NCBI GenBank assembly: GCA_046581755.1 | Contig: JAYGFR010000249.1 | Coordinates: 1 to 16,647 of the forward strand | Direction of reading: 5' to 3' | DNA length: 16,647 nt | DNA from: Nitrospinota bacterium | GTDB lineage: Bacteria > UBA8248 | In this document: positions 1-9,000 of the stretch, one piece after another | How positions within the stretch are numbered: the first letter of the stretch is position 1 | Layout of the letters: each line of letters opens with the position of its first letter | Position numbers: made by a program

Positions 1-3000
1 TGATCCGCAGGGTGGACTCTTTTCCGGTCAACGCCGCCAGATAGGGCCGGGCGATAATCCGGGCCAGATTCTTTCTGTAAAGGAGTTTCACCAATCCGGT
101 AAATGCCAAATTGGCCGAGAATGCATCATCGCCCCGCACTAAGTTTTGATAAGTAAACGTAAGGGCGTTGGATCCCTCGGTCCCAATCGCGGTGGCGAGG
201 GCGCTATATCTTTTCTGGGCGTAGTCATTGACGCCGATGTTCAACTCCTCCAGAGCGTCCGAATCCACCTCAAGCACCAAAACCTCGATGAGCACATGCT
301 GCGGCTTGCGGTCGATCGTCCTGAGCACCCGCTTTATCTTTCGCACCTGGCTTCGCTTGCCCTTGATGATGACGGTGTTCCGGGTTTCCTCGATGCTGAA
401 CAGGACGCCTCCCGCGCCTCCCCCCGGGGCGCCTTCTTCTCCTTCGCCCCCCCCTCCCCCAAATAATTTCGACAAAACCTGATTGGCCGATTTGACGTTC
501 AGGTTGAGGAGTGGGTGTTCAACGGTGATTTCAGGGTCGCTGGGCTTTTTCACGGCCGCTGGGGCCGCTGGGGCCTCGGCTCCCTCTGGAGGCGGCCCGG
601 CCGAGGGTGGCGGAGGGTCTCCATCCGTGGGCGGCGGCACCGCTCCCTCCGCCGCGGGCGGAGTCGCTCCTTCCGCGGGCGAATCCTGGACAAGAAGACC
701 AAGGAACCTTCCCCTCTGGAATCCTGTGGTTGCCCTTTGGAATCTTGTGGAAAATTGCGCGGGCGTGCCGTTGTTGTTGTTGTCTTTCCGGAAACTCTGG
801 GGAGGGCTGGGGGGTTTCTTGGCCGCCGCGGCGGGCCTGTCGGGAACGCCCTCCTCGATGAACAGGACGCCCTCGCTCGAGAACGACGCGGAAAATCCCT
901 GGGAATTCAAAAAAATATTCACCGCGCGCAGGAAAGGCATTTTTTCGAACCGTCCCGACACGAATCCCGTAATTGTTAGGTCATTCAAAAAATATTGGGT
1001 TTTCGATTTGGTCAATAAAATATCGATGACCTTTCCCAGCGGCGCATTGTTCAGGTCGGCGCTGACGAGAAATCCCTTTTTCTTCCCGTCCCGGACGACT
1101 TCGAGACGGCGAATTTTGGCGCCAAGCACGGCTTCGCGCTTCTTCTTGGCTTTGGTCGCGTCTTTTTGGTAAGTCTCGAAAATACCGGCAATATCTTTAT
1201 CGGTGAACAGCAGATTGTTCATTTCGACTTTTTTCTTATTGTTGGCGCACCCGAACGCAACGAGGAGGCCACACAAGAATATCAACTTCGGGAGGTTGTT
1301 TCTCATCATCATCCACCGATGGAGCCTGACCATGGACCCAGCCCATCCCCACGCAGTCGGATAAAACCGATCAGGGAACTTTGGCCGGACATCCTATTTA
1401 CCCTATTCATGTTTAAGCTTTTATAGCCAAGGACCCGGGAAAATGCAATCCCGTATTTTCGCCTCAAACCCTAAAATCGCCACATCACGCCCAGGACAAC
1501 GGGGACGCCCAGAATGGGTTCGGTGGAAACCAATCCGCTCACACCGTCCGTCACCTCACGCTCCTGAATCCATTCCAGGCGGACCTCGCCCATGAATCCG
1601 AATTTTCCCCATTTGTATTCGGCGCCCACCCCTCCTTCGCCGTAGAACAAGAGTTTTGAATCGAAAAAATCCACCCGGATGGACTGGGAGGGAGCCTCGG
1701 TAAGGAAGATCCGGGCGGTGATGTCGTCCGTCTGGAGGAGGCCCAAACTTCCCCGTACATAAAAAGATAATTTATCTTTCATGAACGGATACATCTTCAT
1801 GCCGGCATAAATTCCCCATTCGGCGGCATCTTTCATCGACACGCGAATGTTCCCCGCCTGGGTGGCCGTGAGCGACCCGAGGCCCGCGAAATCGATTGTC
1901 GCGGGGCCGTCGATCTGGAACCCGTCGAACGATTTTCCGTTGAGTTGCCGGTAGACGATGCCCGCATGAAGGCCAATCTGGTTCGTGAAGGAGCTCCCGA
2001 ATTCCACGCCCACCCCGCGCTGGGAAAAGGCGTCGTCAAAGGAGGTGGAAAGCGATTTGATCGACGCTGCCGTATTGAGGGTAATGCGGTCGCGCGCATT
2101 GTTGGCCGTGAAGGAGGCGGTGGCGGGTTTAATCAAATCGCCGGACGAGAAAACCGACGATGAAAAATAGGGCTGGACCGTCCCGCCGATTTTCTTCTCC
2201 TCCGCCGCCGGGGCGCGGAGGGGATGGAAGATCGACAGGACCGCCAATAAAAATACCGCCGCTTTAAATCGGTTCATCCATTCTCCCGCAAATGAGGTGA
2301 TCTCGCCATTCCGCCCAAAACCAGGACCGCCAATCATCGAACGCGCCTTTAACCCCGCCCGCGCCAAGTTCCCGGGATGGGGCCGAATTTTCACTCATAG
2401 GAGCAAATATGGAAGAGGTTGGATCATAGCCCAAAAATGTGGAAATGAAAAACCTGGCTGCGCGGGGGTTCGGGCGATTTCAGCCAAACCGGCCGGCCGG
2501 CTGAGAATTGACGTGGCCCAATATCCAGCCCCGCGGATAAACCCGGAGCGCCCCGGCATCCCCGCCGGAAAAGAGCGGGTTTTGGGCCCATTCACGGCCA
2601 AGGACCGGCTCCCTGTGAGGGGCGGAGGGAGGTTGATTCCGCCAAATCCGGAGAGATTTTCGGATAAAAAGCCGGGATAAAAGACCGGAGAACCGATTCA
2701 ATCCTGAGGATGCTGGATATCCGGAACACCCTTAATAATCGAAAACGGTCGGACCCTCCACCGGCTCCGCAAGCACCCTCAGAGCCTCGCGGGCGGCCCC
2801 GAGGCGCCATTTGCGCTCGGCCTCCGGCTCCCTGGAAGGATCGCCGAAGGGATGGTGGAAATGGCCCGCCTTGGTGTTCACGATGCGGTTGGCCCCGATG
2901 TCGCGGGCGACATTTGGCAGGCAAGTAACGACGACGGTGGGAATGCCCTCCCGCTCCAGAGCCCTGGCCAGCGCAGCCCCGCTGCGCGTGCCCGTCCCTC

Positions 3001-6000: not shown

Positions 6001-9000
6001 AAGAACCCTTCGCCACCACCATCGTACTCCGAAGGTCTCCCCTCCGCATCCCCGCAAGGGCATGGCCGAGATAGGGGACGCCCGCGGGAATGTGCCCCTG
6101 GGTCGGAGCGAACCCCGGCATCCCGCGCTCCTCGACGAAGGAGTCGATATCCTCTCTCCCGATTTCGCCCGCCATGACGGCCAGCGCCGCGAGGGTGCGG
6201 TAGTTGGTCCGCGGAACATCGCCCGCGCCCGCCGGGAGCGTCACCCCGGGGTCGTGGAGCTCGACGGCGTACTTGTCGATATCGCAGATTCGCCGGCCGG
6301 CCCGTGCGAGCGGATCGCGCACCAGCGCCTCGGCCAGCCCCTGCGGGGTGGAAGGCTGTCCCGCCGCGTGGCGGCCGGCGATCTCAAGGTTCACGCGGGG
6401 GCCGTCCCCATCGCCCGTGCCGAGCAAAAAGGCGACCGATCCCAGAACGTCCTCCAAAACGGGCATCTCCTTTTCGATGTGGCGGTGGGCTTTCATCCCC
6501 AGCTTGGCCAGCGAGCCACCGCCGACGATGGCGACGTTGCGCACGACCCCCGCCTGGATGAGGGCCGCGCCGTGGATCAAGGCGACGACGGGCGCCGCGC
6601 AAAACGATTTGATGTCCGTCCCGGCGGCGTTCACGCAGCCGGCCATCTCGGCGATGGCCTTGGCGAGGTTGCCGCCCCCCCGGTTGTAGCGGTCGCCGAC
6701 GGCCTCCTCAGAGCAGCTGATCACGTATTCGAGCTCATCGGGCGCAGTCCCGGCCCCCTCGAGAAGATGCCGCAGCACATAGGCGCCGCTCGCCTTTGCC
6801 GCCAGATTTTCGAGGAGAATGCGCGCACCCAGCGCCTCGTCGGTTTCGTGATCCCGCCTGGCGCAGCCGATGAGCGCATCGCCCCGGTAAAGCGGAAGGG
6901 CCTCCCCCGATTCGACGAGGCGGAGGATGTCCTCCCTCCCGGACGCCTTCGGCGGCACGGCGCTTTCCAACAAAGGGACGGCAAGCGAGGCGCCCTCCGC
7001 CCCGAGGGGCCGCTCGAACATGGTGAGACCGAACAGATCCGCCGCCGCGAGGAGGGCGTAGAACGTCTCCTGACCGAGAATCTCTCCGAACGCGCCCCGG
7101 GCGGATGCGCCCCCGGCGGGGTGGGCATGCCAGGGCAGGAGAACCTCCCTCAACCGCTCGGGCGCGATGTTGCCGATGAACGCCTGGTTCGGCGGGTAAG
7201 CCACCGCCTCATCGAACTGCCTGAGGCGCTTCGAGAGAGCCCGCGAGAAAGAATCGCCCTGGGCGGCGATCTCGCGGAAACACTTCGACCCGTAGCGCAC
7301 CAAATCGGGCACATGAACAAGAACGTTGGCCGCCGCACGCAACACCGGGGTCATAAAACCACCTCTCCAACAGCACCGCACGATAAGAATGGCCGGAATT
7401 ATGCGGCAACAGCACCCTATTTCAAAGCTCCGGCCTTTTCGAGGATTCGCGCGATATCCCTGGTATCCGCGCTGGCGGGTGTATGTCGTCAGAACATTTT
7501 GGACGACAAGCGCCTATCACTAAGAGACACATGAGTTGTTGCGAAAGCGGCTAGGCCGCCATGTTGAGGACACTTCCTTGCTCATCTCACGCTCCTTCCA
7601 AAGATGAATCGGTCAGAAAATGTCTCTTGGCGTATTACCCCGAATGGTCCGCCAGGTTCTCAATCCATACATCCCTTCTTCGCCCGCCATTTAATTCATT
7701 GCAGCGCTCATTTCCTCTTTCAAAAAACTCAACTCAGAACACACCCAAATAGAGCAACAGTTATGCCATCTACCTTAATTGTTGTCTTTTCAATGAAATA
7801 CAATCACTTGCCGCCTAAATGGAGACAGGGATGAAGGTGCTAATCCGTTCGAATTATCATTGAATGTATGGAGATGTACATTTTATGTGTTTTTTTATAG
7901 GGGCCATTTCCAGAGTCTTTTTACTGGTCAAGGAAGGAGCGCGAATGGAGCGGCAGGAGTTGCGTGGAAATTCAGGTGGAGGGGAATTTTGGAAAAAACC
8001 ACATGAGCCTCTCCCCCCGGATTGGAGGTGGAGTCCACCTCCACCCGCCGAACATGGCTCAAACGGGGCAAGGGAGAGGGTTGGGGTCGTTCCGGCGGGA
8101 ACGAAGGGTTTTGTCTTTGCCGTTGCAATAAAAGGGAAAACGACCCCCTAAAACACTTTTTCCGATTCTACGTTTGCGGTTTCTCTCGGTGGCGACCCCC
8201 CCGGCGGACGCCGCCACCCCGGAGTATAAGGAGCGGGGGATATACGGGAGCGGCGGGTCAACCTTTGATATCCGGCTCAGTAGGAGCGCAGGAGATGGGG
8301 AAATTCTTCTCAATCCGCATGGACCGTTTCTGGCGGGCGGGCTACCTGCCCACTCCGAAAGACAAATAAAGAAATCTTTCATAAAATCGAACGACTGAAT
8401 TTTTTTATGTGAATTCGTATTTGGAGCGGGGCGGCATGGCCAGGATTCGAGAGCGGCCCATATTCATCTACCACCAGATTGGCGACTACCCGGCCGATCT
8501 GATGCAGTATGGCGTCACCCCGGCGGCGTTCCGCTCCCACCTCGACGCGCTCGAAGAACTCAACCTCGAAGCGATTCCGCTGGACCGGATGCTCGCCCAG
8601 ATGAAAGGGGAGGCCCCCTTCTCCCCCCGCGCGGTTTCCCTCACCTTCGATGGCGGATTCCGGGACGCCGCCGAAAATGCGCTCCCCATTCTGACCGAAA
8701 GAAACATCAAAACCACGTTTTTCATCCCGACCGAATACGTGGGAAAAGAGCACGCCCTTTACCGCGCAAACCTCCCCTGCATGGACTGGGGCCAGATCAG
8801 GGAACTCCTGGCGGCGGGGATGACGATCGGCTCGCTGGGAAGATACGGAGCCAGGTTGACCGAGATAAAGCCATCCGAATGGCGCGAGGACGCGCGCACC
8901 GCCCGCCGGACGCTCGAAGACAAGCTGGGCGCCCCGGTCCGCTACCACGCCTACCGCGAGACGTTTCCGAACCGGCGGCTTCGAAAATACTTCATCGAGG

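What a model noticed while it worked through the whole genome (the two positions that open the first line are those of the whole stretch)
2735..7354. Glycine-reductase operon that lacks GrdD, acetate kinase and Pta
An operon grdC-grdA(Sec)-grdE-grdB(Sec) has no grdD, the subunit that makes acetyl phosphate in the clostridial enzyme, and the genome has no Ack or Pta. This GrdD-less type is widespread, and its GrdC keeps a FabH/thiolase fold with Cys252, so the product is probably released by GrdC (e.g. as acyl-CoA), not as acetyl phosphate.
Evidence so far: GrdC (NF040746) in 35 of 51 phylum genomes (181); GrdD (NF040747) in 0 of 51 (180), only PlsX at low score (178); positive control G108 E 4e-163 (195). 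0 of 80 GrdC loci from many phyla have GrdD within up to 6 kb (47 with full flanks), 76 have GrdA (191, 196, 198); 0 of 10 of those whole genomes over cut-off (192, 193). Ack and Pta 0 of 5 incl. four single-contig genomes, controls ring (184, 185). GrdC Cys aligns to the FabH catalytic Cys (189); model pLDDT 84 matches thiolase/FabH (197, 200). This GrdC lacks the C-terminal helix seen in the GrdD-paired GrdC of G108 (198). Not found in searches 182, 190, 201.
(Added by a program. Inside this text positions count along the whole contig: contig position 1 is position 1 of the stretch shown here. "Call 12" and the like, gene names such as g00115 and contig names such as C1 are that model's own, and its searches are not shown. 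The text may have been shortened before it was handed on; [...] marks where a part breaks off. The agent that wrote the report below was given it as the finding of a first reader that could run no searches.)

Follow-up and report, generated by a model that had tools for sequence, protein, structure and literature searches.

The report
One-subunit protein C selenoreductase, no GrdD
This marine bacterium carries an intact four-gene selenium enzyme of the glycine-reductase family that lacks the subunit which normally makes acetyl phosphate, and its remaining subunit likely hands the acetyl group straight to coenzyme A instead, probably from a substrate other than glycine.

Summary
Confirmed. grdC-grdA(Sec)-grdE-grdB(Sec) is intact. 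GrdC passes its cut-off in 34 of 51 phylum genomes, GrdD in 0 of 51, and GrdD's cysteine-bearing tail domain in 0 of 51; controls hit 3 of 3. Ack and Pta each occur in 1 of 51 (G008, which has GrdC); PduL in none. Among 80 metagenome loci found with a mixed alignment, all 22 long-tailed GrdC have GrdD adjacent or fused and none of 58 short-tailed do. One branch separates the two types. The GrdD-less type has five nearly fixed basic residues (R20, K24, R27, R222, K288) where GrdD-paired GrdC is mostly uncharged. The model (pLDDT 92.5) has the thiolase/FabH fold. The catalytic-position residues C252, E365 and H421 are shared by both types, so the Cys alone proves nothing. 'Glycine reductase' is a misnomer here: GrdE lacks the pyruvoyl Cys and GrdB lacks both Cys of UxxCxxC. 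Best reading (0.5): GrdC transfers its acetyl group to CoA; hydrolysis is the main rival. The scan noted this GrdD-less type on other DNA at least eight times; I found it in no paper searched. New variant of a known kind.

The parts
5942..7354 (-). grdC, short GrdD-less type, 470 aa, thiolase/FabH fold. Shared with canonical GrdC: C252, E216, E365, H421. Type-specific: R20, K24, R27, R222, Y223, K249, K288, H367. No C-terminal helix.
6599..6601 (-). Cys252 codon; aligns to the catalytic Cys of FabH and thiolase, at the start of helix 251-268
5430..5888 (-). grdA, selenoprotein A, 152 aa, CxxU motif; in-frame TGA at 5763-5765
5707..5759 (-). hairpin just after the grdA UGA, SECIS candidate (z -2.33, 1 of 200 shuffles as stable)
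4143..5426 (-). grdE-like protein B subunit, 427 aa, without the pyruvoyl-forming Cys (Tyr in its place); own clade apart from glycine/sarcosine GrdE/GrdG and betaine GrdI
2732..4051 (-). grdB-like selenoprotein B, 439 aa, in-frame TGA at 2999-3001, both Cys of UxxCxxC absent; the hairpin after the UGA is no better than shuffles
7398..7425 (-). sigma-70-like promoter match (10 of 12) 43 nt before the grdC start; consensus match only

Best explanation
This is an intact, selenium-dependent reductase of the glycine-reductase family whose protein C is GrdC alone, and GrdC likely passes the acetyl group from its own Cys252 to coenzyme A, which would give acetyl-CoA instead of acetyl phosphate. Steps: (1) Inferred from the family: Sec351 of GrdB attacks the CH2 of a carboxymethyl-X substrate. 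X is probably an already good leaving group such as a quaternary amine, a sulfonium or a halide, because the pyruvoyl Cys is absent (the absence is shown; the substrate is not). (2) Inferred from the family: the carboxymethyl group moves to Sec42 of GrdA. (3) Inferred: GrdC with the CxxU of GrdA cleaves the selenoether and forms acetyl-S-Cys252. (4) Inferred and specific to this type: a pantetheine thiol, most likely CoA bound by the new basic residues, takes the place of GrdD's cysteine-bearing tail domain. (5) Inferred: thioredoxin and thioredoxin reductase encoded elsewhere in the genome re-reduce GrdA.
For: GrdD is over cut-off in 0 of 51 genomes, against 34 of 51 with GrdC, six of them single-contig; control 3 of 3. 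GrdD's C-terminal Cys domain occurs in 0 of 51 (control 3 of 3) and nowhere in six frames of G000; G000 PlsX lacks it. No fifth gene is conserved beside the block in 20 phylum loci or in the 66 GrdD-less loci clustered, apart from grdA, grdB, grdE and thioredoxin. In 80 metagenome loci, 22 of 22 long-type GrdC have GrdD and 0 of 58 short-type do (37 with at least 1 kb downstream). One branch (99, FastTree) and one state change separate 29 paired from 58 GrdD-less rows. GrdD-less rows keep R20 (55 of 58), K24 (56), R27 (57), R222 (58) and K288 (58), where the commonest paired residues are I/V, T, T/M, M and N. Their tail is 5-17 residues (43 of 58 measurable) against 24-48 in 22 unfused paired rows. 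The fold is thiolase/FabH/OleA (pLDDT 92.5, pTM 0.94; Foldseek E 4e-11, query TM 0.35-0.42), a superfamily that moves acyl groups between a Cys and CoA (own knowledge). Ack occurs in 1 of 51, Pta in 1 of 51 and PduL in 0 of 51, so acetyl phosphate would have almost no ATP or CoA outlet. G000 has three NDP-forming acyl-CoA-synthetase-like genes below cut-off and a heme-copper oxidase. GrdC and full-length GrdB co-occur: both in 35 genomes, neither in 14, one alone in 2 incomplete MAGs. selA, tRNA-Sec, Trx and TrxB are present.
Against: No product or substrate has been measured. C252, E216, E365, H421 and K449 are invariant in both types, so the catalytic core is not what changed. I had no model coordinates, so I could not show that the basic residues cluster at a CoA tunnel; they could equally bind phosphate, an acyl carrier protein or acidic GrdA. 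The position aligned to FabH's adenine-stacking Arg (numbering and role recalled) is K in only 31 of 58 GrdD-less rows and 27 of 29 paired rows. G000 has an acylphosphatase. G008 has this GrdC together with Ack and Pta. Ack and Pta are also missing in relatives without the operon, so their absence is not tied to it. The rows are related, and the two types differ by a single split, so the residue differences are one evolutionary event and not independent cases. In the canonical enzyme the acetyl thioester is reported on GrdD (recalled, Kohlstock et al. 2001; not found), so acetylation of GrdC's Cys is untested even there.
Confidence: 0.5

Rival explanations
1. GrdC forms the acetyl-enzyme and hydrolyses it to acetate. 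The system cleaves a C-N, C-S or C-halogen bond for detoxification, nutrient release or electron disposal, and conserves no energy.
For: No acceptor gene lies in the operon. The host has a heme-copper oxidase and need not rely on substrate-level ATP. Invariant E216, E365 and H421 could activate water. D-proline reductase is a family member without a high-energy acyl intermediate (PMC10298544, passages).
Against: Simple hydrolysis does not explain five nearly fixed basic residues specific to this type. It would waste a thioester.
Confidence: 0.2
2. GrdC makes acetyl phosphate itself; the new basic residues bind inorganic phosphate.
For: Basic residues fit phosphate as well as CoA. G008 has Ack and Pta beside this type. 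An acylphosphatase is present in G000.
Against: 33 of 34 GrdC genomes lack Ack and Pta, and none has PduL. I know no thiolase-fold enzyme that does phosphorolysis (own knowledge).
Confidence: 0.1
3. The acetyl group goes to another acceptor: an acyl carrier protein, an amine, or a condensation partner as in FabH or OleA; or the system runs in reverse to carboxymethylate something from acetyl-CoA.
For: The nearest folds include FabH, PqsBC and OleA. A basic patch would suit an acidic carrier protein (inference).
Against: No ACP or biosynthetic gene is conserved next to the block. FabH's His position holds Glu365.
Confidence: 0.12
4. PlsX or an unrelated, unlinked protein stands in for GrdD, and the product is still acetyl phosphate.
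For: GrdD is homologous to PlsX, and 48 of 51 genomes give a weak PlsX-level hit.
Against: G000 PlsX sits in the fatty-acid cluster, has one Cys (C223) and lacks the Cys tail domain. The short GrdC has lost the C-terminal helix found in the unfused GrdD-paired GrdC. Ack and Pta are missing.
Confidence: 0.06
5. The operon is a decaying remnant or an assembly artefact.
For: G000 is a 400-contig assembly. Some relatives have foreign ORFs inserted in the block.
Against: All four frames are intact, all catalytic-position residues are invariant, and the arrangement holds in six single-contig genomes. Near-identical contigs of all four genes occur in a seawater RNA library.
Confidence: 0.02

Closest known systems
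Glycine/sarcosine reductase of Peptoclostridium acidaminophilum and Acetoanaerobium sticklandii (GrdA, GrdB+GrdE or GrdF+GrdG, GrdC+GrdD, TrxAB); reference locus Acetoanaerobium noterae L001
   Same: GrdA with CxxU, Sec-bearing protein B, GrdC about 45% identical with the same Cys, Glu and His
   Different: No GrdD, no GrdD Cys domain, short GrdC with its own basic residues, no pyruvoyl Cys, no UxxCxxC, no trx genes in the operon, no Ack or Pta in the genome
Betaine reductase GrdH/GrdI (reference Enterococcus gilvus L003)
   Same: Protein B without the pyruvoyl Cys (PMC10838667 states this for GrdI)
   Different: GrdH model 358 bits against cut-off 775; separate GrdE-family clade; GrdH keeps UxxCxxC and works with GrdC+GrdD
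Fluoroacetate reductase FarE/FarB of Cloacibacillus porcorum
   Same: Protein B lacking both the CxxC and the pyruvoyl cysteines (PMC10838667, passages)
   Different: FarE model 142 bits against cut-off 675; Far is predicted to feed a canonical GrdA/GrdC/GrdD system; no farA or farC here
Thiolase superfamily: FabH (KAS III), biosynthetic thiolase, OleA, PqsBC, SpoVAD
   Same: Fold and position of the catalytic Cys
   Different: 12-18% identity, query TM 0.35-0.42; Glu365 at FabH's His position; about 150 residues longer than FabH; no condensation genes nearby

Membership tests
Glycine/sarcosine/betaine reductase system (acetyl-phosphate forming) | Selenoprotein A with CxxU | tested here: met
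   NF040748 212 > 130 bits, U42
Glycine/sarcosine/betaine reductase system (acetyl-phosphate forming) | Two-subunit protein B with Sec | tested here: met
   PF09338, PF07355, TIGR01918; U351
Glycine/sarcosine/betaine reductase system (acetyl-phosphate forming) | Protein C beta subunit GrdC | tested here: met
   NF040746 575 > 450 bits
Glycine/sarcosine/betaine reductase system (acetyl-phosphate forming) | Protein C alpha subunit GrdD with its C-terminal Cys domain | tested here: not met
   0 of 51 genomes, controls 3 of 3, local profile search of G000
Glycine/sarcosine/betaine reductase system (acetyl-phosphate forming) | Acetate kinase to turn acetyl phosphate into ATP | tested here: not met
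   absent in G000 (96.5% complete), 1 of 51 in the phylum
Glycine/sarcosine/betaine reductase system (acetyl-phosphate forming) | Sec machinery and thioredoxin system in the genome | tested here: met
   selA, tRNA-Sec, TrxB-like and Trx-like genes found; selB and selD not searched
Glycine/sarcosine/betaine reductase system (acetyl-phosphate forming) | Product is acetyl phosphate | not testable with these tools
   needs an enzyme assay
Glycine- or sarcosine-specific protein B (GrdB/GrdE, GrdF/GrdG) | Pyruvoyl-forming Cys at GrdE position 242 | tested here: not met
   Tyr in the aligned column; position from PMC9908766 passages
Glycine- or sarcosine-specific protein B (GrdB/GrdE, GrdF/GrdG) | UxxCxxC motif and family cut-off | tested here: not met
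   both Cys absent; TIGR01917 399 < 602, NF040794 423 < 800, NF040793 261 < 780
Betaine reductase protein B (GrdH/GrdI) | GrdH cut-off and GrdI clade | tested here: not met
   358 < 775 bits; outside the clade that holds L003
Fluoroacetate reductase FarEB | FarE cut-off; farA and farC neighbours | tested here: not met
   142 < 675 bits; no such neighbours
Thiolase-fold superfamily | Fold and catalytic Cys at the start of a helix | tested here: met
FabH (KAS III) | Cys-His-Asn triad | tested here: not met
   Glu365 aligns to the FabH His (profile alignment, probability 92%); His421 aligns to the thiolase His (83%); triad recalled
Thiolase-fold superfamily | CoA binding | not testable with these tools
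   no model coordinates or ligand score available

The most novel reading that the evidence does not exclude
GrdC alone is a complete, CoA-accepting protein C that turns carboxymethyl-selenoprotein A directly into acetyl-CoA. This one-subunit form is the older and more widespread state, used by aerobic marine and soil lineages, and the textbook acetyl-phosphate enzyme arose from it once by recruiting a PlsX-derived GrdD whose cysteine tail replaces CoA. With a FabH/thiolase outgroup, the GrdD-paired clade nests inside the GrdD-less forms (GrdD-less rows are a clade in 0 of 200 bootstrap trees), but an AU test does not reject their monophyly (p 0.377).
Probability: 0.3. Interest if true: 0.85.

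Novelty: new variant of a known kind. Interest (0 to 1): 0.62.

Why it matters
How protein C turns a free carboxylate into a thioester without ATP is an unsolved step of glycine reductase; a review says the activation step remains to be identified (PMC10298544, passages). A natural one-subunit protein C removes GrdD from the problem and allows a direct test of what GrdC does. If the product is acetyl-CoA, this is an ATP-free route from betaine-like or haloacetate-like compounds to acetyl-CoA. It would also mean that 'glycine/betaine reductase' annotations in marine and soil genomes wrongly imply Stickland fermentation and substrate-level ATP.

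Full report
Observation. The window holds four co-oriented genes on the minus strand: grdC 7354-5942, grdA 5888-5430, a grdE-like gene 5426-4143 and a grdB-like gene 4051-2732, with gaps of 53, 3 and 91 nt. GrdC and GrdA pass their NCBIfam cut-offs (575 > 450, 212 > 130 bits); the two protein B subunits match PF09338 and PF07355. In-frame TGA codons fall at GrdA U42 and GrdB U351, and the genome has selA and a tRNA-Sec. 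A hairpin follows the grdA UGA (z -2.33); the one after the grdB UGA is not significant. A sigma-70-like match lies 43 nt upstream. Relatives are labelled Nitrospinota or Ca. Tectomicrobia by their sources. One titled record whose GrdC groups with the window's (L006) is listed under GTDB UBA8248 in PMC13326102 (one table passage seen), so the host is probably UBA8248 (inference). Near-identical contigs covering parts of all four genes occur in seawater RNA library X1, and parts of the operon in three more (4 of 11 listed runs laid); contigs cannot prove transcription.

GrdD is absent. Over 51 phylum genomes, GrdC is over cut-off in 34 (37 with any match) and GrdD in 0 (48 give a weak hit to model positions about 122-228). 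In G000 that hit is plsX in the fatty-acid cluster. The same GrdD search hits 3 of 3 control replicons at 549-581 bits. Six GrdC-bearing genomes are single contigs. Because the canonical acetyl thioester is reported on a Cys near the GrdD C-terminus (recalled; not found), I searched for that tail domain alone: 0 of 51 genomes, 3 of 3 controls, nothing in six frames of G000 or in the GrdD-less loci. G000 PlsX has one Cys and no such tail. Ack and Pta are each found in 1 of 51 genomes, both in G008, which has a GrdD-less GrdC; PduL is found in 0 of 51. G000 has an acylphosphatase, three NDP-forming acyl-CoA-synthetase-like genes below cut-off, a heme-copper oxidase, and Trx- and TrxB-like genes. 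GrdC (with two partial matches counted) and full-length GrdB occur together in 35 genomes, neither in 14, and singly in two incomplete MAGs.

Two types of GrdC. To avoid sampling only one type, I scanned metagenomes with an alignment of both. All 22 loci with the long type have grdD directly downstream or fused, three of them cut short by the contig end. None of the 58 short-type loci has it; 37 of these have at least 1 kb downstream. GrdC-GrdD fusions also appear among the representatives (4 full-length). For the tree and column counts I dropped 5 rows under 400 aa and set aside 20 with under 1 kb downstream and 16 representatives without context. That leaves 29 paired rows (22 metagenome, 3 replicons, 4 fusions) and 58 GrdD-less rows (34 metagenome, 20 phylum loci, 3 titled contigs, the window), some near-identical. 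One branch (support 99, FastTree) separates them, with one change of state. C252, E216, D221, R225, K284, E365, N384, Q419, H421 and K449 are invariant in both. The GrdD-less rows have R20 (55 of 58), K24 (56), R27 (57), R222 (58), Y223 (58), K249 (58), K288 (58) and H367 (54); the paired rows have mostly I/V, T, T/M, M, N, R, N and Q. The tail is 5-17 residues in the 43 GrdD-less rows where my pattern could measure it, against 24-48 in 22 unfused paired rows. Source names place short-type proteins or their cluster members in Tectomicrobia, Syntrophobacteraceae, Binatia and Actinomycetota. No gene other than grdA, grdB, grdE and thioredoxin recurs across lineages beside the block.

Fold. The model has pLDDT 92.5 and pTM 0.94. 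Its best PDB matches are FabH, PqsBC, SpoVAD, OleA and thiolases (E 4e-11 onward, query TM 0.35-0.42, 12-18% identity). Cys252 aligns to the FabH Cys and starts a helix. Profile alignments put Glu365 at the FabH His and His421 at the thiolase His (probabilities 92% and 83%; roles recalled). So GrdC has a Cys-Glu-His centre that both types share. What changed with the absence of GrdD is the tail and a set of basic residues. I could not read coordinates, so their clustering at a CoA site is untested.

Substrate. The window's GrdE has Tyr where glycine-type GrdE has the pyruvoyl Cys242 (position from PMC9908766, passages), and GrdB lacks both Cys of UxxCxxC (motif from PMC13188914, passages). The same holds in most family-level relatives, which form their own clade. 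Betaine GrdI and fluoroacetate FarE also lack the pyruvoyl Cys, and FarB lacks the CxxC (PMC10838667, passages), but their models score far below cut-off. The substrate is therefore probably not glycine, and probably carries a leaving group that needs no Schiff base. Seven GrdD-less loci do carry a glycine/sarcosine-type GrdE with the pyruvoyl Cys (L034, L039, L056, L066, L069, L070, L080). This suggests that short GrdC handles the ordinary carboxymethyl-GrdA, though for these only the locus was seen and three have under 1 kb downstream of grdC.

Mechanism. In the known enzyme, protein C (GrdC and GrdD) converts carboxymethyl-selenoprotein A through an acetyl thioester to acetyl phosphate, which acetate kinase uses (PMC10298544 and PMC9908766, passages). 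Here GrdD, its Cys domain, Ack, Pta and PduL are missing, while GrdC keeps a thiolase centre and carries type-specific positive charge. The simplest reading is transfer of acetyl from Cys252 to CoA (0.5). Rivals are hydrolysis to acetate (0.2), another acceptor or reverse use (0.12), phosphorolysis by GrdC (0.1), a stand-in protein (0.06) and decay (0.02). That the system is a functional GrdD-less variant I put near 0.9.

History. With 6 FabH and 3 thiolase rows as outgroup on 143 columns, 15 paired rows form a clade (93/94) inside 24 short-type rows (4 of them representatives without genomic context). The short-type rows are a clade in 0 of 200 bootstrap trees, but the AU test does not reject their monophyly (p 0.377), the outgroup branches are long, and the diagnostic columns were not removed. 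An older GrdD-less state is favoured, not shown.

Prior knowledge. Searches showed no description of a GrdD-less type. I saw listings and abstract openings for these, and passages of seven papers; PMC3091704 and PMC12872456 added nothing on protein C. No supplements were read, and the library lacks most classic papers on this enzyme. The scan's own notes describe this GrdD-less type on other genomes eight times; they are unchecked AI notes, not support, and one prompted my test of the pyruvoyl site. New in this report, as far as those notes show, are the two-type split measured on a mixed sample, the basic residues, the tail-domain search and the rooted tree.

Verdict. Real, and a new variant of a known kind: it works like the glycine/betaine reductases up to carboxymethyl-GrdA, but fails membership of the acetyl-phosphate-forming system and of the glycine-, sarcosine-, betaine- and fluoroacetate-specific families. 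Interest 0.62.

Noticed in passing
G000:C60:1490-4194: A second, stand-alone grdE-like plus grdB-like (Sec) pair without pyruvoyl Cys or UxxCxxC, beside an acyl-CoA-dehydrogenase-like ORF; it probably feeds the same GrdA/GrdC.
   Followed up: partly
P0126, P0128, P0129, P0133; L062, L079, L087: Natural GrdC-GrdD fusion proteins of about 840-900 aa (L062 is cut short by its contig end).
   Followed up: partly
L088, L091, L093, L106, L107 (between grdE and grdB); L004 (after grdC): Unrelated ORFs, one transposase-like, are inserted inside the block in several relatives.
   Followed up: no
L011, L014-L018, L021-L025, L027, L029, L041, L042, L047, L083: A clade has only grdC-grdA at the locus, often after a macro-domain-like gene (motif recalled), with no protein B gene in the fetched flanks.
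   Followed up: no
G000:C208:33272-33673 and 1-3 similar places in most phylum genomes: Short proteins matching only the C-terminal part of PF07355 (PrdB-like), present also in genomes without the operon.
   Followed up: no
window 12925-13878: A DUF3179 gene lies in two ORFs (13639-13878 and 12925-13602), possibly frameshifted.
   Followed up: no
window 2-1333 and 1471-2394: A secretin-like gene cut by the contig end, and a 307-aa ORF with no Pfam or NCBIfam match, follow the operon.
   Followed up: no
P0147: A long-type GrdC homolog with Asn in place of the catalytic Cys and Gln in place of His421, perhaps inactive.
   Followed up: no
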